Below are positions 17,876-46,100 of a stretch of 64,000 nt of DNA, in pieces. The stretch lies in the IMG/VR virus record IMGVR_UViG_3300045988_084596, positions 57,930-121,929 of that record; one strand, written 5' to 3'. Within the stretch, counting starts at the first letter, position 1, and the number at the start of each line of letters is the position of its first letter. The stretch comes from a virus. The notes below the pieces were generated by a model that saw only the letters and a list, made by a program, of their open reading frames with translations, was not told where the DNA came from and made no database searches. A program made the position numbers and the translations under genes.

Positions 17876-18664
17876 TGATGTATTCTATCCACGTAAAATA
17901 TGGATACTACTATGCAATAATAGTAGAGAGTGCCTAAGAGGAAACTCTTAGAGTAGAGGCTGGCTAAAACGGCGAAGGCGAATACAGAACGCCGTGCTAA
18001 GTTTCTTTGGGCAGACTCATTTAAGTGGAATACACTATTTTTCATATATAATGAAAGGTGGTAGACTTAAATGAGAAAATATGATAAAGAGTGGCTTCAA
18101 GAATTATGTTCTTCAAGTTATTCTTATGCGGAAGTTTTAATTAAAGCTGGTCGTAAGATTGGCGGAGGCGCGCAACAAACCTTAAAAAAGAAGATTGTTG
18201 AGTATGGAATTGATGTTTCACACTTCACAGGGTAGAGATGGTATGATGCTCCAGGGAAAGAGTGTAATTTAAAGGGGCAAGATAGAGAAAAATATTCTCT
18301 GAACGAAGTTTTTGTGAAAGATAGTCCAGTTACTCAAAAGGTTCTTAGAGGTTATGTTGAAAGGCACAATGTTTTAGAATATAAGTGTCAACAATGCGGA
18401 TGTGACGGTCATTGGCAAGATGGAATAATTGCCTTAGAAATTGACCATATAGATGGAGATAACACCAATAATGAAAAAACTAATCTTCGCTATTTATGTC
18501 CAAATTGTCATGCTTTAACAGAAACTTACCGAGGAAGAAACAAAGCCCTAAAGAATAAATGTGTAGAGAGTATACACCAGCTACCTAAGTCTGAATAAGA
18601 TATGGTAAAGACGTACTCCAGACTACAACACAGAAATGTGGCTATGGTGACATAGAGTAGTAAG
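17876..18664 (+). mobile_element. group I intron in tRNA-Leu(TAA) carrying an HNH homing-endonuclease ORF
   Basis: Bounded by the tRNA-Leu exons. Contains ORF 18071-18598. Terminal G present. The intron RNA core was not modelled. Confidence 0.6.
18071..18598 (+). CDS. HNH homing endonuclease (intron-encoded), one in-frame TAG
   Basis: ATG 18071 after GAAAGGTGG. CQQCGC...HIDGD...NLRYLCPNCH HNH motif. The frame is continuous from 18071 through a TAG at ~18233 into track ORF 18314-18598. Confidence 0.7.
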
Positions 18665-18734
18665 AAAATCCCCTGGGAGCAATCTCGTACGGGTTCGAGT
18701 CCCGTCTCCGGGACCAAACAATTCTTTTATATAT

Positions 18735-19266
18735 GGGTCAGTAAAGTGCTAAAGTAGACACCCCGGTCTGTGTTAAATTCCTACTTAGGAGGATATTAAT
18801 GGTCATTACAAACAATCAGTAGAAAGGAAATGCTGGTCTATCTTTAGCAATAGGATACTTTGGTTCTAATGGATACACTGTATCAGTCCCACTGAATGAT
18901 ACTCAATGGTATGATTTAGTTATTGAAAAAGATGGAGTTTTCCAAACAGTTTAGTGCAAATTTACATCATCGAAAACTGGAGAAATTAATCTAAAATCCG
19001 CAGGTGGAACTAAAGGAAATGTTTATGATTCGATACTTAACCATCCTTTAGACTTGTTGTTTTGCGCTAATCAAGATATGAATATGTTTGTAATTCCAAT
19101 GAACGATTTGATTCAAGCTGGAAATGTAAAATCAATAACTTTGAGAACAACCAGTGCCCCAAATTGTAAATTGGATACCAGTAAATACTTAGTTCGAATC
19201 TAAGATTTAACTCCAAAAACCGGTGCTTTCGAGCTCGAGTGGGTGCGATTCCCTCCTGGCCCACCA
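18735..19266 (+). tRNA. candidate split tRNA (5' part ~18735-18775, 3' part ~19204-19266) interrupted by a ~430-nt insertion encoding a PD-(D/E)xK nuclease
   Basis: 3' end GTGGG-TGCGATT-CCCTC T arm, acceptor 3' strand CTGGCCC, A, CCA. Upstream GGGTCAG pairs with it (one G-U). Candidate anticodon stem CCGGT (18763) / ACCGG (19219). Type II-like variable region. Exact intron borders were not resolved. Confidence 0.35.
18799..19203 (+). CDS. PD-(D/E)xK-family nuclease (Hjc/Holliday-junction-resolvase-like), 2 in-frame TAG
   Basis: ATG 18799 after TAGGAGGATATTA. GNAGLSLAIGYF...YDLVIEKDG...Q-CKF matches the D...E-x-K nuclease core. Two in-frame TAG. Confidence 0.55.
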
Positions 19267-19295
19267 CATCTAACAATAGGAAAGGAAGTAAATAG

Positions 19296-20417
19296 ATGAA
19301 TATTGTCCATACAGGAAATCGTTTTTAGGTATATGGTGACGATGTAAAAACTTATAAAGAGTTACCAATCGGAACCTATACAATCGGTTTCCATCCCCAA
19401 ATGGGAATTTGGCTTTCTGTTCATAATAATTTGCAGATTGGCGAAGAAAAAGTTTATGGCTCGCATAGTCATAAGGTAGAGAAAGTTTTCAACTCTTTCG
19501 ATAAGTCCGAGCGAAACTTTGGTATAATTCTTTCTGGTAAGAAAGGTATTGGCAAATCTCTTTTTGCAAGAATGATTGCGGATGCCGCGATCAAGCGAGA
19601 AATGCCAGTGATTGTAGTCGATTCTCCTATTCCTGGAATTAGTAATTTCCTCAGTTCCATTGAACAAGAAGTTGTTATTATCTTTGACGAGTTTGAAAAG
19701 ACTTTTGCCAGGAATGATGACGGCGATCCGCAGGTAGGACTTTTAAGTCTATTTGATGGGATTGATAATGGAAAGAAACTTTTTGTTATCACTTGTAACG
19801 ATACAAGAAAATTGAACGAATTTCTTATCAATCGCCCTGGTCGTTTTCACTATCATTTTGAGATTGGCTGTCCTACAGCGGATGAAGTGCGGGCATATAT
19901 GATGGATGCGCTTGGAAGCGGTATGGAAGAGGAAATTGAAAAGGTTGTTAAGTTGTCGCAGGTCGCGGACATTACTTATGATAGTCTAAGGGCTATTGCT
20001 TTTGATTTGAAACAGGGTTATCCTTTGGAGGAAACCTTAATGGACTTGAATATTAACTATGAGAGAGGCGCTCTCTTTGATGTTAATGTTCGTTTGACTA
20101 ATGGTTGGGTTATGACTGCATATAATTATAATCTCGATCTTTATGCCAAAGAAGTTCAGTGTCTTCGATTTAGAAAAGATAAGAATGATTTCTACCTTTC
20201 TTTTGATCCAGGAAAGATTAAATCTATGGATGGTACTCTAGTACTTATGGGTGTAGATGCTAATTTCTATTGTGATTTTGATGCTTTCGATTATGATTAC
20301 CCCACTGAGGAAGAGAGTGCAAAGGCTAGAAAGGAATTTAACGAAAAAGTAAGGGTTGAAAATGCAACCTTTACTAAGGTTTCAATTTATGGAGTCAATA
20401 AGTATATTGACCTTTAA
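19296..20417 (+). CDS. AAA+ ATPase (373 aa), one in-frame TAG near the N-terminus
   Basis: ATG 19296 after the consensus leader TAGGAAAGGAAGTAAATAG. Walker A GKKGIGKS, Walker B VIIFDEFE. The frame is continuous with track ORF 19401-20417 through a TAG at 19326. Confidence 0.65.
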
Positions 20418-26730: not shown

Positions 26731-26806
26731 TGCGGAGTAGCGTAATGGTTTAGCGCAGGGGTCTCTAAAACCTCGGGAGTGGGTTCGAATCCCACCTCCG
26801 CTGCCA
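26731..26806 (+). tRNA. amber suppressor tRNA (anticodon CTA), Gln-like
   Basis: D arm GCGT-AATGGTTTA-GCGC, anticodon stem GGGGT/ACCTC with loop CTCTAAA (CTA at 26765-26767), T arm GTGGG-TTCGAAT-CCCAC, acceptor 3' CTCCGCT, G73, CCA. U1·U72 mismatch. The 3' acceptor/discriminator resembles the two tRNA-Gln genes. Confidence 0.65.
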
Positions 26807-36061: not shown

Positions 36062-36340
36062 ATGCCAGGTCGCAGAACTTCAAAATATACAAAAGATCAG
36101 AACGCCTTGTTTCAAGGAGAAGTAATGGTAATTCTTGCTGATAGCGAAGAGGCTCTTACTATTGAGCAAATTCAGCAAAGATCAATTACATTAACAGGGT
36201 TAAGCCCTCAGAAGATGGCTCGTATTCTTTCTCATTTAATTGAAATGGGAAATGTAACAAAAGCAAAAAGTAAGAGCATGGGTAAAATGGTATATAAATC
36301 ATTGGCTGTAATGAGAAGGCAGGGATATGATGTTTATTAA
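36062..36340 (+). CDS. hypothetical protein (92 aa)
   Basis: ATG 36062 after AAGGAGG. The track ORF began earlier in the same frame. Confidence 0.5.
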   Translation: MPGRRTSKYTKDQNALFQGEVMVILADSEEALTIEQIQQRSITLTGLSPQKMARILSHLIEMGNVTKAKSKSMGKMVYKSLAVMRRQGYDVY

Positions 36341-36584
36341 TGTCATGAATGAAGATATTTTTGATGTTACTTTTAGTATCTATCTAGATAATCAAATTAT
36401 TCGACAATGGAGAATGCAGGCGCCGAGACCATTCATAGAGATTAAATTTATTCAAACTGTTCAACAAATTGCTTCTCAATCACAACCTATGAAGGTAATA
36501 GTGTCAAGAGAAGAGGTAATTTGGGATCAATTTGAACAGAAACACAAAGTTCTTCCTGTAACAATGGAGTTTCAAAATTATTAA
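36327..36584 (+). CDS. hypothetical protein (85 aa)
   Basis: Overlapping ORF. Confidence 0.4.
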   Translation: MMFINVMNEDIFDVTFSIYLDNQIIRQWRMQAPRPFIEIKFIQTVQQIASQSQPMKVIVSREEVIWDQFEQKHKVLPVTMEFQNY

Positions 36585-36601
36585 GAGGGAGATTGTTAGT
36601 A

Positions 36602-37417
36602 ATGAAATATTTTATCGACTTTGAGGCTACACAATTTTCGCAAGAAATTATTTCTATCGGATGTATTAGAGAGGATGGTCAGACTCTTTATGCACTCGTA
36701 GCCCCAAAGAAAGGTAAAATTACTCCTTTCATTACTAATCTTACTGGTATCACAGCAGAGATGATTGATAGTGCTATGTCTGCCGATACCGTATTCTCTA
36801 AGTTCTATGATTGGTTGTTTGAAAATCTAGATGATGCACCAGAATTTCTTGTATGGGGAAATTCTGATGGAGATTTTATTCGACATACTTCTCGTCATGC
36901 GACCGCACTTAAAGCAAAAATGGCGTTGGGATATATTTGTGGCAATTATCGAGATTATGCCAAGATGTGCAAAAAAGAGCTGAAATGGGAATGTAATCAC
37001 AGTCTTTTGAATACTCTCAGAAGATTTAATCCTTCTGCTGAACAAAATCACAACTCCTTAGATGATGCAGTTCTACTAAAGGAAGTATATGATTTTATAA
37101 GTAACACATCAAGAGAAACACTTGATGAAATGTTCGCTGATTGGAAGAGGAAAGCAACTAATAAAGAAAGTGTTTTTATTCCTAAATGGAATAAAGCTGG
37201 TTATCCTGCTGGAACTATTTGCATTGTTAATTCTAAGAAGCGGGCTACAAATACTTTTACTAGTGTTGAAGCTGCTGCACTGTGGCTTAAAGAAAATAAA
37301 TGCGAGTCTGACACCTATGAGCATTTCAATCTTGAAAATACGATAAAAAATATCGAGAAAGCTATCAAGGGTGGTAACCACTACTACGGAATGGGTTGGA
37401 GGAGAGTAAATGGCTAA
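36602..37417 (+). CDS. DEDDh-family 3'-5' exonuclease (DnaQ-like)
   Basis: ATG 36602 after GAGGGAG. FIDFEATQF (Exo I motif) and later H...D motif. Confidence 0.55.
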   Translation: MKYFIDFEATQFSQEIISIGCIREDGQTLYALVAPKKGKITPFITNLTGITAEMIDSAMSADTVFSKFYDWLFENLDDAPEFLVWGNSDGDFIRHTSRHATALKAKMALGYICGNYRDYAKMCKKELKWECNHSLLNTLRRFNPSAEQNHNSLDDAVLLKEVYDFISNTSRETLDEMFADWKRKATNKESVFIPKWNKAGYPAGTICIVNSKKRATNTFTSVEAAALWLKENKCESDTYEHFNLENTIKNIEKAIKGGNHYYGMGWRRVNG

Positions 37418-37748
37418 ATATAATTTATACGCAGGCCTGGGCGGAGGATTTGGCGGGTATCAATATCATTGCACAGAAGATTATGACTCTAGAGAAGACG
37501 CCGAGGAAGCCGCTCGAGAGCTAGCGATTGAAGAGTACCAATCTTATGAGGGTATGCACGGAATTTTGTCCGAGGGAGACATTCGAGAGCAATATTGCGA
37601 AGAAAATGAACTGACCGAAGATGAACTGACCCAAGAAGATGAAGATGAAATCTCTGGTATGTATCAAGAGGAAATTGAAGGTTGGCTTTCCTATTTGGTA
37701 ACTACTGTTGAGGAAGATCCCGACCATGATAGATATTATGAATGGTAA
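37410..37748 (+). CDS. hypothetical highly acidic protein (112 aa)
   Basis: ORF with GGAGGAG RBS; Glu/Asp-rich. Confidence 0.45.
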   Translation: MAKYNLYAGLGGGFGGYQYHCTEDYDSREDAEEAARELAIEEYQSYEGMHGILSEGDIREQYCEENELTEDELTQEDEDEISGMYQEEIEGWLSYLVTTVEEDPDHDRYYEW

Positions 37749-37767
37749 GAAAGGAAAGTGATATAGT

Positions 37768-39039
37768 ATGGCGTATTTTGGTCTTGTAACTAAATTGCAG
37801 AATGTGCGGAAGGACGAGAATAGTGACCGCCTTTATCTTGCCGATTGTTTCAATGAAGGTGTAATTATTGGCTCTGATATGCAGACTGGTCAGGAGGTAT
37901 TGTATCTACCTACTGACGGTGAGATTGAGAGATGGTTCGGGAATGAATTCTGCCTTTTTCGCAAGAATGAGGATGGAACCCCTCAGGGCGGATATATCGA
38001 GAATAATGGACACATCAGAGCTATTAAACTTCGCGGCAATCAGAGTTCTGGTGTTGTAATTGCTCTTGATAAAGTTTATGAGAAATTCGGAAATCAGAAC
38101 TGGAAAGATGGAGATAAGGTAAACACTATCAACGACAAAGAGTTTTGTCGTAAGTACATTCCTAAGCGCAAAACTCCTACAGGTCAGGTTAAGACTTCTT
38201 ATAAAGGTCGTAAAGCTGAGGGAATTACATATCCTGAGTTCTCTATGCACACTGATACTGAACAGTTGGCATATAATCTTGACAAATTCCGCCCCGGTGA
38301 TATTCTCAATATGACCCTTAAAATGCACGGAACTTCTCAGCGCTCTATGAATACTTATGCTGAGCTTCCTAATGGTTTCTTCCGTCGCCTCTTCCATATG
38401 AAAAAGCGCACTAAGCAGGCTTATGTTCTTGGAACTCGTCGCTGTGTAGTCACAGAGAACTCTCAGGGATTTTATGGAAATGACCAGTTTCGTATGCCAC
38501 ATCATGAAGCGTTGAAACCTTACCTTGAGCCAGGAATGGAAGTTTTCTACGAAGTAGTGGGTTATTACGGCCCCAATGAAGAGAACACCATTATGCCTAT
38601 CGGAGATAATACCAAAGTCAATGATAAGGCTTTTGTAAAGCAGTTTGGTAAGCGTTCTATTTTCTCTTATGGATGTGAGCCTGGTTAGAGCAAGATGTAT
38701 ATTTATCGTATTACCTCTGAAAATGGAGAAAGAGAGTGGACTCCTGACGAGATTACTGAATGGTGTAATGCTCATGGCTTTAATCGAGTTCCTGTGATCG
38801 AGGATTTTGAATTTACTACCGTAGAGGATTTGCAGGAGCGCATTAACAAATACTTTGAAGATCTCACTGATCCGATCGGCCGCACTCATGTAAAAGAAGG
38901 CGTTGTTATCCGAATTGTAAATCGTCGTACTTTTACAGCTTTTAAGTCTAAGACTTATGAATTTAAAGTCATCGAGGGCATTATCAAGGAAAACGAAATC
39001 GCTCCAGATATGGAAGAGGCTCAGGAGGAAGAGATTTAA
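37768..39039 (+). CDS. RNA ligase (Rnl2 family) fused to an N-terminal tRNA-binding OB-fold domain; one in-frame TAG
   Basis: N-terminal VTKLQNVRKDENSDRLYLADCFNEG resembles the tRNA-binding-domain motif (V.KH.NADKLYV..VD.G). LKMHGTS matches the Rnl2 adenylation motif KxHGxN. Track ORFs 37768-38688 and 38695-39039 are one frame joined by a TAG at 38689. Confidence 0.6.
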
Positions 39040-39284
39040 TGTTAGGAATTATTTTTGGAGCGGCGGGTATGGTCTTTGTTTATTATACGGTTCAAACCAT
39101 TTTTGGTCCAGTTGATGAAGAGTTTTATCTTGGATATTATACTGGTATTGGAGCTACATTTCTTTGCGTACTAATAAACGCAATTCTATAACCAATTAAA
39201 TTTTAAATTAAAGGAGAGTATATTCTCCTTTAATTTTATAATAAAATATTATATAATATTTATATAAAAGAAAGGAGTTATGAT

Positions 39285-39821
39285 ATGTATAGACTTCTTG
39301 TGATTGTAGATGCGCAGAATGATTTTATTACTGGCTCTCTGGGATCTAAGACAGCGGATGCCGCGGTTCCTAATATCGTTGATCTAATTAAACGATTCTG
39401 TTGGGAGGAAATTATTTGTACCATGGATACCCATGACAATGATTACTTTGATACTTTGGAAGGAAAAAGACTTCCCATTAAACATTGTATCAAAGCAAGT
39501 GTGGGCTGGTGTATGGATTCCAGAATTGTTGTTGCGTTGAATAACAAATTTAACTATTATGAAAAAGATACCTTCGGTAGTACTGATATGGTCAATGAAG
39601 TATACGATTCTCTAAAAATGAAGAATCCAGAGGAAGTAGAAATTCATATCTGTGGATTTTGTACCGATATTTGCGTTATGGCTAATGCAGTTATGCTTCG
39701 TGCGGCGATGCCAAATACTAGAATTATCGTCCATTCTAGCGCGTGTGCAGGAGTAACTCCAGAATCGCATGAAGCAGCGCTAACTATTTTCAAAGCCCAG
39801 CAGATTGATGTGGAGGATTAA
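39285..39821 (+). CDS. isochorismatase-family hydrolase (nicotinamidase PncA-like)
   Basis: LLVIVDAQNDF N-terminus and Cys-containing ICGFCTDICV block are typical of cysteine hydrolases/nicotinamidases. Confidence 0.55.
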   Translation: MYRLLVIVDAQNDFITGSLGSKTADAAVPNIVDLIKRFCWEEIICTMDTHDNDYFDTLEGKRLPIKHCIKASVGWCMDSRIVVALNNKFNYYEKDTFGSTDMVNEVYDSLKMKNPEEVEIHICGFCTDICVMANAVMLRAAMPNTRIIVHSSACAGVTPESHEAALTIFKAQQIDVED

Positions 39822-40638
39822 AAAAATGATTAGTCTAATTAATACACGCAGTCATTGGACAGACGTAATTGAACAAAATCATTTTCCAGATGGTACGCTG
39901 CACATTAACATGCCTCCCAACTACTTCGATTATGATACGATTGTTTGGGAGTACGAGAATGATGCAGAATTATTTACTCTCATTTGTGTTAAGGGACATT
40001 TCGAAGATTTCCCTGTAAACCTAGATATGCCATATATTCCTCATGCGAGGATGGATCGGGTTCAAGAACTTGAAGATGTATTTACTCTAAAATACTTCTG
40101 TCAAGTAATTAATAGCCTTCATTTTGATAAAGTTATTGTACGCGATGCTCATTCTAATGTATCGTTAGCTCTACTTGATAGAGTTATTGATCTTAGTCCA
40201 GTTGGAGAAATCAAAGAGGCTATTAAGAGAACTGAGGAATATGAAGGAGAAATTCCTATCCTATTTTTCCCAGATGAAGGAGCGATGAAGAGATATTCTG
40301 CTCCACCCATTAATTTTCCTTACGCTTTTGGAATTAAGAAAAGGGATTGGTCTACTGGAAAAATTCTTGGTTTGCAGTTAATAAATGAGGAAATCGTTAA
40401 AGAGAGAAATGTCTTAATTGTAGACGATATTTGTTCTCGCGGTGGAACTTTTTATCACGCAGCAAACGCCCTTAAAGAAGCTGGCGCAAAGAATATTTAT
40501 CTGTATGTAACTCATGCAGAGCATACCATGATTGAGGGCGATATGTATAATCAAGATATTGTGAAGAAAATCTTCACTTCTGATAGCATCTTCAAGACAG
40601 AGTGGGATATTAGAGGAAAGGTAGAGATTGTAAGATGA
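39805..40638 (+). CDS. PRPP-synthetase-like type I phosphoribosyltransferase (candidate ADP-ribose pyrophosphate synthetase)
   Basis: PRPP-binding loop VLIVDDICSRGGT. ~277 aa, Prs-like size and order. Confidence 0.5.
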   Translation: MMWRIKKMISLINTRSHWTDVIEQNHFPDGTLHINMPPNYFDYDTIVWEYENDAELFTLICVKGHFEDFPVNLDMPYIPHARMDRVQELEDVFTLKYFCQVINSLHFDKVIVRDAHSNVSLALLDRVIDLSPVGEIKEAIKRTEEYEGEIPILFFPDEGAMKRYSAPPINFPYAFGIKKRDWSTGKILGLQLINEEIVKERNVLIVDDICSRGGTFYHAANALKEAGAKNIYLYVTHAEHTMIEGDMYNQDIVKKIFTSDSIFKTEWDIRGKVEIVR

Positions 40639-41084
40639 CTATTGAGAAACTTCAAGAGTTAAAGATTATGGCTCTTAAAAATGGAAATACAAATACAAAG
40701 AGGGTACTTTCTGACATGATTGATGCGTGTCAGAAAGCAGCCATTACTCCAAAAGGAAGAGTTGAATTAACTGAACAACTAGTTGACGAAACCCTTATCA
40801 AATATCAAAAGACAGTACAAGAAATGATTGATACCTGTCCTGCTAGTTATCCTGAAAAACTGCATCAATATCAAGAGGATATGAAGGTAGTAAAGATGTG
40901 TGCCCCTCAGCTTATTACTGATAAGGCAGAAATTGAAACAAAAGTAAGAGAGATCGCTGGAACCGCAGGTATTGATCTCCTCAAAGCAAACCGTGGTGTG
41001 CTTATGAAGTCTGTTTCTATGGAGCTTAAAGGTAAGGCAGATATGAAGATTGTAAGTGCTGTTGTTGGAGGGTTGTTAAAGTGA
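40635..41084 (+). CDS. YqeY/GatB-C-terminal-like domain protein
   Basis: Weak remembered similarity of the N-terminal region to the YqeY family. Low certainty. Confidence 0.3.
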   Translation: MTIEKLQELKIMALKNGNTNTKRVLSDMIDACQKAAITPKGRVELTEQLVDETLIKYQKTVQEMIDTCPASYPEKLHQYQEDMKVVKMCAPQLITDKAEIETKVREIAGTAGIDLLKANRGVLMKSVSMELKGKADMKIVSAVVGGLLK

Positions 41085-41449
41085 ATCTATCTTTAGAGCA
41101 GACTCTCGCATCTATTCTTCAGTCGCTCGCAGATTTTTTTGGAGTAACAACTCAAACTATTATGGAAAACGCTCCCATGTGGCTGGCCAAATATGGTTGG
41201 TATGTAACTATTAAAGATTTAGGATTAACTATCTTTATAGGAGGATTTATTAGTATTGCTCTTATTGGTGGATTATTTTTTATATTTTATATAATGCTTG
41301 ATGCAGATTATAAAAAATGGCACTCAGCTATGTTTGTAACGATAGCAATACTTGCAATTATTATAACAATTTTTATTCCAATTATTACTTGTATCATCGC
41401 TCCAGAGTATGTTGGAATTGAAGCACTACTTAGATTGCTTCAAAGTTGA
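41081..41449 (+). CDS. membrane protein (122 aa, 2-3 TM)
   Basis: Hydrophobic stretches IFIGGFISIALIGGLFFIFYIML and IAILAIIITIFIPIITCIIA. Followed by terminator 41452-41478. Confidence 0.5.
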   Translation: MNLSLEQTLASILQSLADFFGVTTQTIMENAPMWLAKYGWYVTIKDLGLTIFIGGFISIALIGGLFFIFYIMLDADYKKWHSAMFVTIAILAIIITIFIPIITCIIAPEYVGIEALLRLLQS

Positions 41450-41451
41450 TA

Positions 41452-41478
41452 AAAGCCCTCATAAAGAGGGTTTTTTAT
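41452..41478 (+). terminator. intrinsic terminator
   Basis: AAGCCCTC-ATAAA-GAGGGTTTTTTATTTTT. Confidence 0.65.
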
Positions 41479-41532
41479 TTTTATAAAAATATATGATATA
41501 ATATATTTAAGAAATAAGGAAAGGAAGATTTT

Positions 41533-43122
41533 ATGAGTTTCTTTGATGTAGCTCCAATGTTTGCCGCTGACTACTACAAAGTTGGTCATGCTATTAAGAT
41601 GCAGCCGAAGTCTGCTTCTATGGTTTATTCTACTTGGACAGCTCGCAGTTATAAGCATCATCCAAATTGCCCTAAGACAGTGGTCTTTGGTCATCAATAT
41701 ACCATCCAGAAACTACTTGAATTTTGGCAGACAGAGTTCTTTGATCAGTCAGTTGAGCTTCTTGAACAGGAGTGGAATCATGTAATTAAAAGTACTTTCC
41801 ATCCTGATTACGCGGATTTTACCAAGTTTAAAGAATTGCATAAACTTGGTTATTTACCTATTTCTATCATGGGAGTTCCAGAGGGTACGCTTCTTCCCGT
41901 CGGGATTCCAGATCATGTAATTTTTTCTAATCATCAAAATTTTGCGTGGCTTCCGCAATTTATCGAAGATCAGTGGAGCGCTAATAACTGGCTCCCCTCG
42001 ACTTCTGCCACTACCGCTTTTTATCGCCGCAAGTTGATTGAGCCTTATGTCAAGACTAGTTGCGACGATATGTCTGCGCTTCCGCATATGTGCGGAGACT
42101 TTTCTCTGCGCGGGCATACAAGCCTTGAAGCGGGTTATATCTCAGGTGCTGCCCATGCTCTTTCTTTTGATAGAACTGCAACCATTGGTTCTAACCTTCT
42201 CCTTGAAAAATACTATGGAGCAGATCTTGAGAATAATCCTCCCATGATGGGAACTCCTTCTCTTGAGCACTCTGTTGTTGAACAAGGTGTAGCTTGGATG
42301 AAGCAGAAGATTACTAATGGAGATTTAACTGAAACTGAGCGTTATCTTTTCTCTAAGGCCGCTTTTGATAATTGGGATATTAACCTTATTGCAGAAATGC
42401 TTTTTATTAATTATCTTTGCACAGAAGTGCAACCTACAGGAACTATGACCTATGTATCTGATACATATGATTATTGGGGTATTGTATCTAAGGTTCTTCC
42501 TATGTTGCACGATGTTATTGCAGCAAGAGATGGATGTTTCTCCGTTCGACCTGATAGCGGAGATCCTGTAAAGATTATCTGCGGCGACCCAGATGCTGTA
42601 CCCGGTTCTCCTGAGTTTATAGGAACTTTAAATCTTCTAAAAGAAATCTTTGGCGGTGAATTGAATACTAAAGGATATTTTATTCTTCCTTCTTATATTC
42701 GTATGATTTATGGAGATGCCATTACTCCAGAGATTACTGAAAAAGTTTGCTCTTGGTGCGTTAGAAATAATATCTCAGTATCCAATCTATGTTTTGGAAT
42801 TGGAGCTTATACTTATCAGTATGTAACTCGTGATACTAGAGGCTATGCTATTAAAGCTACAGATTGTATCCTCGGCAATGATGAAATTCAGATTTATAAA
42901 ATGCCTAAAACCGACCCTGGGAAAAAGTCTCCTCGTGGATGTGTTGCAATTTTTAAAGAGGAGAATGGCGATTATTCTTTAGTAGAAAATCTTACTCTTG
43001 AAGAATCCATTGGATATAAGAACAATGTAATGAAATTTAAAGTCAAGAATGGAAGTTTCTGTACGGAGAGCGTAGAGACTATCGAAACTATTAAAGAGAG
43101 ATTGATGGGAGAAGTTCTATGA
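41533..43122 (+). CDS. nicotinamide phosphoribosyltransferase family protein (NAMPT/NadV-like; possibly nicotinamide ADPR transferase)
   Basis: 529 aa. N-terminal FDVAPMFAADYYKVGH and later GTMTYVSDTYD blocks match NAMPT family proteins as I recall them. Confidence 0.6.
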   Translation: MSFFDVAPMFAADYYKVGHAIKMQPKSASMVYSTWTARSYKHHPNCPKTVVFGHQYTIQKLLEFWQTEFFDQSVELLEQEWNHVIKSTFHPDYADFTKFKELHKLGYLPISIMGVPEGTLLPVGIPDHVIFSNHQNFAWLPQFIEDQWSANNWLPSTSATTAFYRRKLIEPYVKTSCDDMSALPHMCGDFSLRGHTSLEAGYISGAAHALSFDRTATIGSNLLLEKYYGADLENNPPMMGTPSLEHSVVEQGVAWMKQKITNGDLTETERYLFSKAAFDNWDINLIAEMLFINYLCTEVQPTGTMTYVSDTYDYWGIVSKVLPMLHDVIAARDGCFSVRPDSGDPVKIICGDPDAVPGSPEFIGTLNLLKEIFGGELNTKGYFILPSYIRMIYGDAITPEITEKVCSWCVRNNISVSNLCFGIGAYTYQYVTRDTRGYAIKATDCILGNDEIQIYKMPKTDPGKKSPRGCVAIFKEENGDYSLVENLTLEESIGYKNNVMKFKVKNGSFCTESVETIETIKERLMGEVL

Positions 43123-43844
43123 CTAATACGGTTACTAAAATTATAGATTGGATTAAAGAGTATTTCATAAAAAACGGGCCGGAGTGTAAAGCTGTTATCG
43201 GGATTTCTGGCGGCAAAGATTCTACAGTGGCTGCGGCTCTTCTTTGTAAGGCTCTTGGCCCGAATCGAGTAATTGCCGTACAAATGCCACAGGGATTCCA
43301 ATATGATATTGATGTTTCTAATGAGGTAATTGATTACCTCGAAATTACAGAGCATTACAACATCAATATTGGTTCAGCTTGTCAGGAGATTTTCTTGTCT
43401 TTGCCCAATGATATTAGAATTCAGCCGCAAGTTACAAGTAATGTTCCAGCAAGAGTAAGAATGAATATCCTTTATGCAATCGCCGCGAGCCGTCATGGAA
43501 GAGTTGTGAATACTTGCAATAGAAGTGAAGACTATGTAGGCTATTCTACTAAATTTGGAGATGCAGCAGGAGATTTTTCTATTCTCTCTAATTATACTGC
43601 CACGGAAGTTAAAGAAATTGGTATTGAGCTTGGATTGCCAAAGAACTTCATTGAAAAGCCTCCAGAGGATGGATTAAGCGGTTTAACAGATGAGGAAAAT
43701 TTAGGATTTTCTTATGATGTCCTAGATAATTTCCTACTTAATGGTATTACTCCTCCATATGAGATATATAAAAACATTGAACAAAGACATAAGAGAAATT
43801 TACATAAGATTTCCCCTATGCCAACTTGTCCATTCTTTTCTTAA
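43119..43844 (+). CDS. nadE: NAD+ synthetase (NadE-like PP-loop ATPase)
   Basis: GISGGKDST PP-loop SGGxDS motif. Confidence 0.6.
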   Translation: MTNTVTKIIDWIKEYFIKNGPECKAVIGISGGKDSTVAAALLCKALGPNRVIAVQMPQGFQYDIDVSNEVIDYLEITEHYNINIGSACQEIFLSLPNDIRIQPQVTSNVPARVRMNILYAIAASRHGRVVNTCNRSEDYVGYSTKFGDAAGDFSILSNYTATEVKEIGIELGLPKNFIEKPPEDGLSGLTDEENLGFSYDVLDNFLLNGITPPYEIYKNIEQRHKRNLHKISPMPTCPFFS

Positions 43845-43872
43845 AGAGAGCTTTACAGCTCTCTTTATTTTT
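43845..43872 (+). terminator. intrinsic terminator
   Basis: AGAGAGC-TTTAC-AGCTCTCT then TTATTTTTT. Confidence 0.6.
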
Positions 43873-43924
43873 TATAATATTTATGATATAATATTTATAT
43901 AATATAAGAAAGGGAGTTTTATTT

Positions 43925-44656
43925 ATGAGCATATACGCAGTTAGCGATCTTCATGGTATGTATGAGCTATATCAAAAAATTAGTGACTTTCTAAAGCCAG
44001 AAGATAAAGTTTATTGTCTAGGAGATTGCGGCGATCGAGGTCCGCGGTCTTGGGAAACTATTAAAGCGGTCGCGTCGGATCCGCGTTTTATCTATATTAA
44101 AGGTAATCACGAAGATATGCTTGTTAAAGCTATGAAAGATTATATTAAATATGAAACATATGGAGGAGGTCATTTTGATCTTCTCTGTTGGAATGGAGGA
44201 GCTTCTACTTTTAATGGATGGATTAATGATGGAGCTAAGTCTGGATGGTATCACTATCTAAGAAAATTGCCCCTATATCTTGAATATAAGAATAAAAATG
44301 GAATAACCATTATGCTTTGTCATGCGGGTTTTACTCCTGCAAAAGAACCATTCCCAGCAAACGAGGATTTGCTATGGGATAGAGAGCATATCTATGATAC
44401 TACCGAAGGTGAAGGAATTTGCGTTCATGGCCATACTCCAATTTCAGAATACTTAATTCTAAGATTAGATAATGCGAATAATTTTCTACCGCCAGATAGA
44501 CAATTCTCTTACTCATATAATGGTGGAGCTTTATGGTATTGTGATAATCATAAAGTTGATATTGACTGTTGCAGTTATATGTCTGGAAAAACTGTTCTTC
44601 TAAATTTGGATACTTTCGACGAACACATCTTTACTGTTGATAAGGAGGATGAATAA
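43925..44656 (+). CDS. PPP-family serine/threonine protein phosphatase (lambda-phosphatase-like)
   Basis: DLHG ... GDCGDRG ... GNHE motifs in order. Confidence 0.6.
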   Translation: MSIYAVSDLHGMYELYQKISDFLKPEDKVYCLGDCGDRGPRSWETIKAVASDPRFIYIKGNHEDMLVKAMKDYIKYETYGGGHFDLLCWNGGASTFNGWINDGAKSGWYHYLRKLPLYLEYKNKNGITIMLCHAGFTPAKEPFPANEDLLWDREHIYDTTEGEGICVHGHTPISEYLILRLDNANNFLPPDRQFSYSYNGGALWYCDNHKVDIDCCSYMSGKTVLLNLDTFDEHIFTVDKEDE

Positions 44657-44657
44657 T

Positions 44658-45503
44658 ATGAATGACCAGCTAGGCGCTCGCATGAAAGAGTTCTATGAGC
44701 AAATTCCAAAAACTCGACTTGTGCGTAGAACACCTGTAGCAATTAGAATTGATGGAAAAGCATTTCATACCTTTACTAAAGGTTTTAGAAAACCATTTGA
44801 TGCGGTATTGACTTCGGCTATGCAAGAAACAATGAAATATTTATGTGAAAATATCCAAGGATGTGTTCTTGGATATACTCAAAGCGATGAAATAACTCTA
44901 ATTCTTGTTGACTATAAAAAATTAAATAGCGACGCATGGTTTGATTATGAAGTTCAAAAAATGTGTTCTGTAGCAGCGTCCATGGCAACAATGATTTTTA
45001 ATAAGGTGTTTCGTTCAGCTATTGAAAGATATGATATTGGTTGGAAAAATTCTTTAACTCCTCAGGGCGTAGAAATTCAACTTGAGCATCAAGAATATAT
45101 GAGAACTTTACGGATAGCAAACGCAAGAGGGGCTATGTTTGATGCTCGTGTTTTCAATATTCCGAAAGAAGAAGTAACAAATCTAATTTATTGGCGCCAA
45201 TTAGATGCTATTAGAAATTCTATTCAAATGGTTGGACAAGCGAATTTTTCTCATAGTGAACTTCAAGGTAAATGTAGTAGTGAAATTTTAGAAATGCTTA
45301 TTTCTCAAAAAGGAATAGATTGGAATGAATTGCCCGTCTATTTACAAAGAGGTTCTTGTTGCATAAAAGACTGCGAAGAGACCGAAAGAGAGGATGGTTC
45401 AATCCATTTTAAACATTATTGGTTCGTCGATCTCAATATTCCTATTTTTAAGGAAGAAGGTAGACTTTATATCGAAGACCTCATTCAACCAGTCGAATTT
45501 TGA
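44658..45503 (+). CDS. Thg1-like protein (tRNA-His guanylyltransferase family, 3'-5' nucleotidyltransferase)
   Basis: AIRIDGKAFHTF matches Thg1 RLDGRNFHRF. RKPFD matches AKPND. GYTQSDEITLIL matches YGQSDEYSFVF. Start ATG 44658 after AAGGAGGA. Confidence 0.65.
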   Translation: MNDQLGARMKEFYEQIPKTRLVRRTPVAIRIDGKAFHTFTKGFRKPFDAVLTSAMQETMKYLCENIQGCVLGYTQSDEITLILVDYKKLNSDAWFDYEVQKMCSVAASMATMIFNKVFRSAIERYDIGWKNSLTPQGVEIQLEHQEYMRTLRIANARGAMFDARVFNIPKEEVTNLIYWRQLDAIRNSIQMVGQANFSHSELQGKCSSEILEMLISQKGIDWNELPVYLQRGSCCIKDCEETEREDGSIHFKHYWFVDLNIPIFKEEGRLYIEDLIQPVEF

Positions 45504-45539
45504 GACGCATAGAATCTTTTGAAATTATTATAAAAATAT

Positions 45540-45581
45540 AATATAATATATATAGAAAGTTAAGGAATGGAGGAAAGCAGT
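45540..45581 (+). promoter_or_regulatory. consensus promoter + leader
   Basis: TATAATATAATATATATAGAAAGTTAAGGAATGGAGGAAAGCAGT then ATG. Confidence 0.5.
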
Positions 45582-46100
45582 ATGACTATCGAAGTAAAAG
45601 TCATGGTTGGTATACCTGGTAGTGGGAAGTCAACTTGGGCTAATAAAGAAGCCGAACTTCTTGAAATGGATGGCTTTCATACTGCTATTATTTCTCGCGA
45701 TGTGATAAGAGAAAGTTTCATTGGAGATAAGGATTATTTCTCGCGAGAAAATGAAGTATTTGAAGAGTTCGTTCGACAAATTAACGAGTGCCTTGAAATT
45801 GGGATTGACTACATCTTTGTTGATGCTACTCATATCTCTCAAGGATCAAGAGCCAAGTTATTAGGAAGGTTGCGGCCGGACGGGAAGACTGGACTTAGTT
45901 TTGAAGTTTGTGATTGCGGGATTGATACTTGTATAGCCCGCAATAACTTGAGAAAGGGATTTTCCAAAGTACCCGATTCCGCGATTAGAAAGATGGCTAG
46001 AGGTTTTAGACCTCCCACTCCCGCAGAATTTAAACTCTACAAGTATGGCTTTAAGGATGTAAAAATCAATCATCATAACATGGAGGAGGGAGATAAATGA
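45582..46100 (+). CDS. polynucleotide 5'-kinase (P-loop)
   Basis: Walker A GIPGSGKST. ~170 aa, T4 Pnk kinase-domain-like. Confidence 0.55.
   Translation: MTIEVKVMVGIPGSGKSTWANKEAELLEMDGFHTAIISRDVIRESFIGDKDYFSRENEVFEEFVRQINECLEIGIDYIFVDATHISQGSRAKLLGRLRPDGKTGLSFEVCDCGIDTCIARNNLRKGFSKVPDSAIRKMARGFRPPTPAEFKLYKYGFKDVKINHHNMEEGDK

What the first reader, a model, noticed from the sequence alone, without database searches (positions are those of the whole stretch)
18735..19266. Second candidate interrupted tRNA carrying a PD-(D/E)xK nuclease gene
Downstream of nuclease ORF 18799-19203 sits a tRNA 3' end (T arm GTGGG-TGCGATT-CCCTC, acceptor strand CTGGCCC, A, CCA). Its complementary 5' acceptor strand GGGTCAG lies upstream of the ORF at 18735, followed by D-arm-like sequence and CCGGT, which can pair with ACCGG at 19219. 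This suggests another intron-split tRNA with a different homing-endonuclease type (Hjc-like PD-(D/E)xK). I could not place the splice sites unambiguously.
Basis: inference. Interest (0 to 1): 0.5.

Follow-up and report, generated by a model that had tools for sequence, protein, structure and literature searches.

The report
tRNA-like mobile intron in tRNA-Tyr
A phage tRNA-Tyr gene is split in its anticodon loop by a 444-base mobile element that carries a homing-nuclease gene and whose ends fold into the top half of a tRNA. This points to an apparently undescribed kind of intron that would be cut out by ordinary tRNA-trimming enzymes and re-joined by an RNA ligase, not by self-splicing.

Summary
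Window 18735-18771 plus 19216-19266 is an 88-nt tRNA-Tyr(GUA), base-for-base identical to uninterrupted genes in related phage contigs. The insert is therefore exactly 18772-19215 (444 nt). It encodes an I-Ssp6803I-family PD-(D/E)xK nuclease (Pfam PF11645) read with TAG as Gln.

It is not a group I intron. It ends in A rather than G, only 39 nt are non-coding, and ORF-less relatives are just 47-158 nt.

The insert is a tRNA minihelix. Its first 7 nt pair with the 7 nt that precede a discriminator base and CCA at its very end. A canonical T arm (CTTAG-TTCGAAT-CTAAG) sits in the last codons of the ORF.

The same scaffold splits tRNA-Tyr, Asn, Glu, Gly and Leu in related gut phages. There it carries PD-(D/E)xK, HNH or GIY-YIG genes, or no ORF at all.

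The intron ends in N-CCA only where the phage's own tRNA genes encode CCA (15/15). It ends at the discriminator where they do not (9/9).

Best model, inferred: RNase P cuts the 5' junction, an RNase Z-type enzyme cuts the 3' junction, and an RNA ligase (one is encoded at 37768-39039) seals the loop. No RNA data were available. No prior description was found.

The parts
18735..18771 (+). tRNA-Tyr(GUA) 5' exon, positions 1-35: acceptor GGGTCAG, D arm, anticodon stem CCGGT, loop CUGU
   Evidence: Identical to the uninterrupted alleles in L042, L041 and L043. ARAGORN calls Tyr(gta) on the spliced construct x18771_y19216 at -ps95.
18772..19215 (+). The whole inserted element (444 nt): a tRNA-like 'minihelix' intron carrying a nuclease gene
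   Evidence: Boundaries come from the empty-site alleles. It is 444/444 identical to L001 2974-3417, while flanks are 80-91% identical. The unconstrained MFE fold of 18735-19266 recovers the nested structure.
18772..18778 (+). Intron acceptor-like 5' strand GUUAAAU. It begins at the first intron nucleotide and pairs 7/7 with 19205-19211.
   Evidence: All 7 pairs of this helix covary across 23 relatives.
18787..18792 (+). Shine-Dalgarno AGGAGG for the nuclease ORF, 6 nt upstream of the ATG
   Evidence: Read directly from the sequence. Homologues have the same GGAGG-spacer-start arrangement.
18799..19203 (+). ORF of 134 aa: PD-(D/E)xK homing-endonuclease family of I-Ssp6803I. TAG codons at 18820-22 and 18952-54 are read as sense (Gln).
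   Evidence: Pfam PF11645, 55.4 bits against a cutoff of 26.1. PDB 2OST is the only hit. The TAG at codon 52 aligns with the invariant Q52 of the family.
19188..19204 (+). T-arm mimic CUUAG-UUCGAAU-CUAAG, embedded in the last codons and the stop codon of the ORF
   Evidence: It is present in the inserted homologues. It is absent from 0/35 free-standing homologues.
19205..19211 (+). Intron acceptor-like 3' strand AUUUAAC, directly abutting the T stem as in a tRNA
19212..19215 (+). Discriminator U plus CCA, the last four nucleotides of the insert
   Evidence: fixes the boundary. Across relatives, CCA is present if and only if the phage's tRNA genes encode CCA.
19216..19266 (+). tRNA-Tyr 3' exon, positions 36-76: AAA, ACCGG, long variable arm, T arm GUGGG-UGCGAUU-CCCUC, CUGGCCC-A-CCA
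37768..39039 (+). Candidate trans factor (inferred): ATP-dependent RNA ligase. It has an N-terminal extension before the nucleotidyltransferase domain, which I read from own knowledge as the DRB0094/Rnl5-like layout.
   Evidence: Pfam PF09414, E=1.2e-8, residues 183-391. The gene is also present in intron-less relatives, so it is not specific to the intron.
44649..46651 (+). Neighbouring RNA-end repair genes (context only): Thg1-like 44649-45503, P-loop kinase 45567-46100, metallophosphoesterase 46097-46651
   Evidence: Pfam PF04446, PF13671 and PF12850

Best explanation
The insert is a mobile intron of a kind built on a tRNA 'top half'. Its ends form a 7-bp acceptor helix stacked on a 5-bp T stem with a UUCGAAU loop, followed by a discriminator base and CCA. 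The homing-nuclease gene sits where the D and anticodon arms would be.

Proposed pathway:
1. The tRNA array is transcribed.
2. Host RNase P treats the inner minihelix as a pre-tRNA and cuts 5' of its G+1, between U35 and the intron. This leaves 3'-OH on exon 1.
3. The enzyme that makes mature tRNA 3' ends cuts at the end of the minihelix: after CCA here, and after the discriminator in CCA-less phages (RNase Z). This leaves 5'-phosphate on exon 2.
4. The two exons stay held together by the acceptor and anticodon stems. The nick in the anticodon loop is sealed by an ATP-dependent RNA ligase such as the phage's PF09414 enzyme.
5. The released intron is a helix-closed monocistronic mRNA for the nuclease. 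The nuclease cuts intron-less tRNA-Tyr genes and drives homing.

Shown here: the exact boundaries, the tRNA-like architecture and its covariation, mobility, the link between intron end type and the phage's CCA style, and the presence of ligase and repair genes.

Inferred: which enzymes cut, that ligation occurs, and that the nuclease targets the tRNA-Tyr gene.
For: - **Boundaries.** Empty-site alleles fix the insert at exactly the +1 nucleotide of the inner helix through the A of CCA.
- **Geometry.** It is exactly that of a tRNA: 7 bp, then 5 bp, then a 7-nt TTCGAAT loop, then N, then CCA, with no spacers. The MFE fold of the whole 532-nt precursor recovers both the outer cloverleaf and the inner minihelix.
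- **Non-circular test.** Boundaries were defined only by restoring CTGTAAA between a 5-bp stem. On that basis, 19 of 22 nuclease-bearing inserts have >=6/7 acceptor pairs, >=4/5 T-stem pairs and TTCRANY-type loops.
- **Covariation.** 16 of 17 pairs show double-sided changes. The score is 0.867, against 0.217 for shuffles and <=0.168 for slid controls.
- **Generality.** The scaffold is independent of cargo and host tRNA. It carries HNH in tRNA-Asn, GIY-YIG in tRNA-Glu and tRNA-Gly, and PD-(D/E)xK in tRNA-Tyr. ORF-less forms are 47-158 nt. Removing any of them restores a canonical 7-nt loop.
- **CCA link.** The intron ends in N-CCA in 15/15 loci whose outer tRNA encodes CCA, and there the neighbouring tRNA genes mostly encode it too. 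It ends at the discriminator in 9/9 loci whose outer tRNA lacks CCA (neighbours 0/39).
- **T arm only when inserted.** Free-standing homologues of the nuclease lie 5-65 nt upstream of intact tRNA-Tyr genes and never carry the T arm (0/35).
- **Mobility.** 444/444 identity to L001 against 80-91% in the flanks.
- **Trans factors.** RNA ligase, kinase, phosphoesterases and a Thg1-like gene are in the window.
- **Precedent for the 3' cut.** An RNase Z that cuts precisely after A76 of CCA is known in T. maritima (PMC1540738).
Against: - No RNA-level evidence of cleavage or ligation is available.
- In many Bacillota, RNase Z is inhibited by CCA (own knowledge). The enzyme that would cut after CCA in this phage's host is therefore unidentified. 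No RNase P or RNase Z gene turned up among the 30 window ORFs scanned.
- The ligase also occurs in intron-less relatives. It is widespread in gut phages that carry theta ribozymes (PMC10879173), so it is not specific evidence.
- Some relatives have a decayed outer tRNA or no minihelix (L010, the L016 type, L034). Interruption without repair can evidently be tolerated.
- The CCA-less introns form one related clade, so the CCA correlation rests on few independent transitions. L205 is a CCA-bearing member with a related acceptor sequence.
- The window's tRNA-Tyr is itself a weak tRNA, at 32.4 bits.
Confidence: 0.55

Rival explanations
1. Processing without splicing. The tRNA-like ends serve only as RNase P / RNase Z 'punctuation' that frees a stable nuclease mRNA from the polycistronic tRNA transcript. 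The two tRNA-Tyr halves are never re-joined, so the element simply inactivates a dispensable phage tRNA gene.
For: Every structural result fits this as well as it fits splicing. Several relatives have decayed outer tRNAs (L010, L016-19, L034). Phage tRNA genes are individually dispensable (own knowledge). The ligase is not specific to intron carriers.
Against: - ORF-less derivatives cannot home and have no mRNA to release. They still keep a perfect minihelix inside an intact outer tRNA (L194 65 nt, L013 and L014 47 nt, L028 158 nt).
- In every case, removing the insert restores a canonical 7-nt loop with U33 and A37.
- No other tRNA-Tyr gene lies in the 64-kb window, which otherwise holds a near-complete tRNA set.
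- The cut ends would be 3'-OH and 5'-P, exactly what the encoded ligase class seals (established enzymology).
Confidence: 0.27
2. Relic architecture with no RNA-level role. A homing-endonuclease gene once landed inside a tRNA gene. That composite was later copied into other tRNA genes, and the acceptor, T-arm and CCA features are inherited leftovers.
For: The 65-nt ORF-less form folds like a miniature cloverleaf, consistent with descent from a tRNA.
Against: - Leftovers would not covary. Here 16/17 pairs keep pairing through double changes.
- Leftovers would not gain or lose CCA in step with the host phage's tRNA style.
- The T arm is maintained within coding sequence only in inserted copies.
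- The boundaries coincide to the nucleotide with tRNA processing sites.
Confidence: 0.1
3. Self-splicing ribozyme: a group I intron, or another catalytic RNA that overlaps the ORF.
For: The nuclease family was first found in a group I intron of a tRNA gene (I-Ssp6803I; PMC3943268). The adjacent tRNA-Leu(UAA) gene at 17841-18716 does carry a group-I-type intron. Rfam's group I model also misses that neighbour, so its silence is weak evidence.
Against: - The intron ends in A, not G, in 24/24 relatives.
- No guide sequence pairs with the 5' exon.
- Only 39 non-coding nt are present.
- ORF-less members are 47-158 nt.
- The interiors are unrelated ORFs of three protein families.
- There is no bulge-helix-bulge motif (inspection).
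Confidence: 0.03

Closest known systems
Group I intron of Synechocystis tRNA-fMet encoding I-Ssp6803I, and bacterial or phage tRNA group I introns in general
   Same: A mobile insert in a tRNA anticodon loop. It encodes a nuclease of the same PD-(D/E)xK family (PF11645; 2OST), and it shows presence/absence polymorphism consistent with homing.
   Different: There is no ribozyme core, no terminal G and no P1 guide. The RNA scaffold is a tRNA minihelix, and excision must depend on proteins or RNase P.
Archaeal and eukaryal protein-spliced tRNA introns (bulge-helix-bulge, EndA/Sen, then RtcB or Trl1)
   Same: An enzyme-dependent tRNA intron in or near the anticodon loop. The exons are held by the mature tRNA fold and joined by a ligase.
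   Different: The recognition element would be a tRNA-like helix with CCA, not a BHB. The predicted ends are 3'-OH/5'-P rather than 2',3'-cyclic-P/5'-OH. The setting is bacterial phage. The element carries homing-endonuclease genes.
tRNA-like processing signals cut by RNase P and RNase Z: mitochondrial tRNA punctuation, plant t-elements (PMC1920247), MALAT1 mascRNA, and external guide sequences for RNase P
   Same: A helix plus NCCA, or a tRNA top half, directs RNase P and RNase Z cleavage to release flanking RNAs.
   Different: None of these is nested inside another tRNA's anticodon loop, is mobile, or requires re-ligation of the flanks.
Phage tRNA anticodon-loop repair (T4 Pnkp + Rnl1) and DRB0094/Rnl5-type RNA ligases
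   Same: A phage-encoded ligase seals a break in a tRNA anticodon loop. The window encodes ligase, kinase and phosphoesterase genes.
   Different: In this case the break would be programmed by the gene's own structure, not inflicted by a host anticodon nuclease.
Theta (minimal HDV-like) ribozymes next to tRNAs in recoded gut phages (PMC10879173)
   Same: The same ecological group: gut Caudoviricetes, TAG recoding, large tRNA arrays, and enrichment of DRB0094-family ligase. Both are unusual tRNA-end processing elements.
   Different: Theta ribozymes lie 3' of tRNAs and self-cleave. The element here lies inside the tRNA, has no ribozyme fold, and mimics a tRNA.

Membership tests
Group I intron (Rfam RF00028) | Conserved catalytic core P3-P9 detectable by covariance model | tested here: not met
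   No Intron_gpI hit at E<=10 in 17400-19500. Caveat: the model also misses the neighbouring group-I-type Leu intron. Independently, only 39 nt are non-coding and ORF-less relatives are 47-158 nt.
Group I intron (Rfam RF00028) | Terminal guanosine (omega-G) immediately before the 3' exon | tested here: not met
   The insert ends ...UCCA. All relatives end in CCA or in the discriminator base.
Group I intron (Rfam RF00028) | 5' exon ends in U, paired with G of an internal guide sequence (P1) | tested here: not met
   Exon 1 ends in U35 in the window, but in G34, C32 or A35 in relatives. The first intron nucleotides pair with the intron's 3' end, not with exon 1.
Archaeal-type BHB intron | Two 3-nt bulges separated by a 4-bp helix at the splice sites | tested here: not met
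   The junction is a 4-nt / 7-nt internal loop between the anticodon stem and a 7-bp helix. No register gives a BHB (inspection).
PD-(D/E)xK homing endonucleases of the I-Ssp6803I family (Pfam PF11645) | Profile match above the curated threshold | tested here: met
   55.4 bits against 26.1, E=8.8e-15, residues 5-121
PD-(D/E)xK homing endonucleases of the I-Ssp6803I family (Pfam PF11645) | Conserved catalytic-core motif (D ... E-K ... Q-x-K) shared with the solved structure | tested here: met
   D39, E43, Q52 and K54 are invariant in 15 homologues and align with YDLV...VQVK of 2OST.
PD-(D/E)xK homing endonucleases of the I-Ssp6803I family (Pfam PF11645) | Cleaves the intron-less allele of its host gene (homing) | not testable with these tools
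   Indirect evidence only: empty and filled alleles, 100% identical insert in diverged phages, and 45/120 homologues free-standing next to intact tRNA-Tyr.
tRNA-like RNase P / RNase Z substrate (minihelix) | 7-bp acceptor helix coaxial with a 5-bp T stem and a 7-nt T loop of TTCRANY type | tested here: met
   GTTAAAT/ATTTAAC plus CTTAG-TTCGAAT-CTAAG with no spacer. 19/22 relatives have it under boundary-only selection.
tRNA-like RNase P / RNase Z substrate (minihelix) | Single discriminator base followed by CCA (or nothing), matching local tRNA genes | tested here: met
   15/15 CCA-type and 9/9 CCA-less introns match the outer tRNA. Neighbours in CCA-less loci are 0/39.
tRNA-like RNase P / RNase Z substrate (minihelix) | Actual cleavage by RNase P at +1 and by a 3' endonuclease at the mature end | not testable with these tools
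   Requires in vitro assays or RNA-end mapping.
Bacterial type II tRNA-Tyr | Cloverleaf with long variable arm, GUA anticodon and A73, scoring above the tRNA model threshold | tested here: met
   The uninterrupted allele scores 32.4 bits against 29. The spliced window sequence is identical to L042. ARAGORN calls it only at -ps95. It is atypical in having G55 and no G18G19.

The most novel reading that the evidence does not exclude
Gut phages carry a third mechanistic class of tRNA intron besides self-splicing and BHB/EndA-spliced introns. These are 'tRNA-in-tRNA' introns, whose ends mimic a mature tRNA top half. They would be excised by RNase P and RNase Z and re-ligated by a phage RNA ligase. 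They serve as a general mobile chassis for PD-(D/E)xK, HNH and GIY-YIG homing endonucleases. This would be the first protein- and RNase P-dependent tRNA splicing pathway in the bacterial world, and it would give a biological role to the DRB0094-type RNA ligases enriched in these phages.
Probability: 0.5. Interest if true: 0.95.

Novelty: categorically new. Interest (0 to 1): 0.85.

Why it matters
To my knowledge, all described bacterial and phage tRNA introns are self-splicing, and enzymatic tRNA splicing is regarded as an archaeal and eukaryal trait. If this is real, an intron defined by mimicry of tRNA processing sites would be a new route by which selfish DNA makes itself harmless.

Three practical consequences follow:
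- It would explain why standard tRNA finders miss genes in phage tRNA arrays. Here the only tRNA-Tyr was missed.
- It would assign a function to phage RNA ligase and repair modules that are currently read only as anti-defence.
- It would yield a compact, programmable RNase P / RNase Z excision cassette.

It is directly testable with one transcript, commercial RNase P RNA and public metatranscriptomes.

Tried and rejected
- **Rfam.** A scan at E<=10 over 17400-19500 found no intron or ribozyme family. The whole-window gathering scan found only tRNAs and a tmRNA.
- **ARAGORN.** Intron mode finds the Leu intron but not this gene. Spliced constructs pass only at a lowered threshold.
- **Group I, BHB and HDV-like readings.** All rejected on anatomy: no omega-G, no core, no bulges, and no room after the 3' helix.
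- **Generic helix+CCA scan.** Without a T-arm filter, a first scan was swamped by chance hits and by ordinary tRNAs in AT-rich flanks. It was replaced by an ARAGORN-verified scan and a boundary-only test.
- **Cultured phages.** No close relative of the locus or the nuclease.
- **Ligase co-occurrence.** Uninformative. No repair genes lie within the short loci.
- **PDB search with the ligase.** Found nothing.
- **Small 'type B' inserts.** No Rfam family matches them.
- **Literature.** Nine searches found no description of tRNA-like or RNase P-dependent introns.

Full report
**Context.** The window is part of a large, uncultured gut phage.
- It has at least 29 tRNA genes plus a tmRNA.
- It reads TAG as a sense codon. 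It carries a suppressor tRNA(CUA) at 26731-26806.
- ORFs across the window contain in-frame TAGs.
- One TAG of the ORF studied here aligns with a glutamine that is invariant in 14 homologues.
- Relatives come from human-gut and rumen metagenomes. In MAG collections they are mostly binned with Oscillospiraceae, Acutalibacteraceae and other Clostridia.
- No cultured phage is close.

**The observation.** ARAGORN and Rfam do not call a tRNA here, and no tRNA-Tyr is called anywhere in the window. Three related contigs carry an uninterrupted 88-nt gene. The L042 copy is identical to window 18735-18771 joined to 19216-19266. This fixes the insert at exactly 18772-19215 (444 nt), between U35 and A36 of the anticodon loop CUGU|AAA. 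The gene is therefore a type II tRNA-Tyr(GUA). The uninterrupted allele passes the Rfam tRNA threshold, but only just (32.4 bits against 29). The lineage has an unusual T loop (UGCGAUU) and D loop in both interrupted and uninterrupted forms.

**The cargo.** ORF 18799-19203 is preceded by AGGAGG. It matches Pfam PF11645 (PD-(D/E)xK endonuclease, E=8.8e-15). Its only PDB relative is 2OST, I-Ssp6803I, the homing endonuclease of the Synechocystis tRNA-fMet group I intron.

I collected 120 homologous loci from viral and metagenome collections:
- 45 are free-standing genes that end 5-65 nt upstream of an intact tRNA-Tyr.
- 28 are inserted in a tRNA-Tyr anticodon loop.
- About 8 are inserted but with decayed surroundings.

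The family is thus tightly tied to tRNA-Tyr genes.

**Mobility.** The insert is 444/444 identical to the copy in contig 093451. That contig's flanks are 80-91% identical to the window, and its RNA ligase is 89% identical. Two closer relatives (ligase 97-99% identical) lack the insert. This is the signature of recent lateral transfer into an empty site.

**Not group I.**
- No Intron_gpI match at E<=10. This is weak evidence alone, because the model also misses the neighbouring group-I-type tRNA-Leu intron.
- The insert ends in A, not G.
- Only 27 nt lie before the ORF and 12 nt after it.
- Homologous ORF-less inserts are 47, 65 and 158 nt.
- No bulge-helix-bulge can be drawn.

**What it is.** Nucleotides 18772-18778 (GUUAAAU) pair perfectly with 19205-19211 (AUUUAAC). 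Immediately 5' of the latter lies CUUAG-UUCGAAU-CUAAG (19188-19204). That is a 5-bp stem with a textbook T loop, encoded by the last codons and the stop codon of the ORF. Immediately 3' come one base (U19212) and CCA (19213-19215), which are the last nucleotides of the insert.

The insert is therefore delimited, to the nucleotide, by what would be the mature 5' and 3' ends of a tRNA 'top half'. An unconstrained MFE fold of the 532-nt precursor returns the outer cloverleaf with this inner minihelix. With the boundaries fixed independently, I estimate the chance of this combination at about 1e-10. This is my own arithmetic: 0.375^7 x 0.375^5 x ~1e-3 x 1/64.

**Generality.** An ARAGORN-verified scan of all fetched loci found the same architecture in 23 distinct sequences.

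| Outer tRNA | Loop and cut site | Cargo |
|---|---|---|
| Tyr | CUGU\|AAA or CUG\|UAAA | PD-(D/E)xK |
| Asn | CUGU\|UAA | HNH (PF01844) |
| Glu | CUUU\|CAC | GIY-YIG (PF01541) |
| Gly | CUUC\|CAA | GIY-YIG (PF01541) |
| Leu | C\|UUAAAA, CUUA\|AAA | none (47 nt) |

The 65-nt ORF-less form folds as a miniature cloverleaf.

Across 23 sequences, 16 of the 17 pairs change on both sides while staying paired. The covariation score is 0.867, against 0.217 +/- 0.024 for shuffles and <=0.168 for slid registers. That set was selected partly on pairing. I therefore repeated the test with boundaries defined only by restoring a 5-bp stem and the loop CTGTAAA. Nineteen of 22 inserts then have >=6/7 acceptor pairs, >=4/5 T-stem pairs and TTCRANY-type loops. 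Two more have 5/7 acceptor pairs, and one candidate boundary looks spurious. None of the 35 distinct free-standing nuclease genes has a T arm at its end.

**The CCA test.** In 15 loci the intron ends in N-CCA, and in all 15 the outer tRNA encodes CCA. Their neighbouring tRNA genes mostly do as well: 28/29 in the window, 9/9, 11/12, 12/17 and 6/7 in other loci.

In 9 loci the intron ends at the discriminator with no CCA, and the exon follows directly. In all 9 the outer tRNA lacks CCA, as do 0/39 neighbours. An uncorrected Fisher test gives about 8e-7 (my arithmetic). The CCA-less introns form one related clade, so independent transitions are few. L205 is a CCA-bearing intron with a related acceptor sequence. 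A DNA-level element has no reason to track the 3'-end style of its host's tRNA genes. An RNA that is matured by the tRNA 3'-end machinery does.

**Mechanism.** This rests on established enzymology and is inferred here. RNase P cuts 5' of +1 of an acceptor/T-arm stack, leaving 3'-OH on the leader, which is exon 1. RNase Z cuts after the discriminator, leaving 5'-phosphate on the trailer, which is exon 2. T. maritima RNase Z cuts precisely after A76 of encoded CCA (PMC1540738).

The products form a nicked tRNA with 3'-OH/5'-P ends in the anticodon loop. That is the substrate of ATP-dependent RNA ligases. The window encodes one (PF09414, 37768-39039). It also encodes a P-loop kinase, three metallophosphoesterases, a Thg1-like enzyme, an RlaP nucleotidyltransferase and an RNase T-like exonuclease. 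The same ligase family is strongly enriched in gut phages with theta ribozymes next to tRNAs, where its role is unexplained (PMC10879173). The excised intron would be a helix-closed mRNA for the nuclease.

**Weak points.**
- There are no RNA data.
- The enzyme that would cut after CCA in a Clostridia-type host is unknown.
- The ligase is not specific to intron carriers.
- Some relatives have decayed outer tRNAs.

The main rival keeps the two cleavages but drops the ligation, so the tRNA-like ends would act only as punctuation for the nuclease mRNA. ORF-less mini-introns inside intact tRNAs argue against that rival but do not exclude it.

**Novelty.** Nine full-text searches found nothing describing tRNA-like or RNase P/Z-dependent introns. 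The defining features of group I and BHB introns were tested and not met. I rate the anatomy as secure, and the splicing pathway as the most likely but unproven reading.

Noticed in passing
window 17841-18716: tRNA-Leu(UAA) split at U34|A35 by a 789-nt insert. The insert ends in G and carries an HNH ORF (18071-18598, one in-frame TAG) and P7-like strands CAGACT/AGTCTG. The uninterrupted allele is in L041 531-617. It looks like a classical group I intron that Rfam RF00028 misses, so two different intron types sit side by side.
   Followed up: partly
window 17636-17758; L011 2527-2665; L015 2528-2666; L022 2481-2634: A second kind of small insert (42-67 nt) lies at about position 31/32 of several tRNAs. 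It has a conserved hairpin plus a (G)TAACAGCAA-like motif and no NCCA end. It matches no Rfam family. Its mechanism and the identity of the window tRNA are unexplained. A link to minimal HDV-like (theta) ribozymes was considered but not shown.
   Followed up: partly
window 18952-18954 and 26731-26806: TAG is read as glutamine. The TAG codon at 18952-54 aligns with an invariant Q in 14 homologues, and the phage carries a suppressor tRNA(CUA) that ARAGORN labels 'Pyl'.
   Followed up: partly
window 34271-46651: A dense RNA-repair and tRNA-maintenance gene set: RlaP nucleotidyltransferase, metallophosphoesterases, RNase T-like exonuclease, PF09414 RNA ligase, Thg1-like 3'-5' polymerase and a P-loop kinase.
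   Followed up: partly
window 14520-15335: A phage-encoded tmRNA (Rfam 70.9 bits) is followed directly by a LAGLIDADG endonuclease ORF (14937-15335).
   Followed up: no
window 8077-8686: An ORF (8077-8598) is followed by a partial tRNA-Asn(GUU)-like sequence (Rfam 33 bits, model positions 8-63). Its 5' acceptor strand does not match its 3' strand. It may be another disrupted or decayed tRNA.
   Followed up: no
window 27751-27837: An 87-nt 'tRNA-Cys(GCA)' has a long variable arm and discriminator U, which is an unusual architecture for tRNA-Cys.
   Followed up: no
L010, L016-L019, L040, L159: The same nuclease family is inserted in tRNA-Tyr-like genes without a recognisable minihelix. In L010 part of the outer tRNA is deleted. 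These are probably decayed introns, or possibly a further variant.
   Followed up: partly
L028 4003-4160 vs L029 4003-4849: The same tRNA-Gly intron ends occur with and without the GIY-YIG ORF (158 vs 847 nt). This is a natural ORF deletion that keeps the minihelix.
   Followed up: partly
window 30789-33230: An 813-aa protein has major-vault-protein repeat and shoulder domains (PF01505, PF17795, PF11978), which is unusual in a phage.
   Followed up: no
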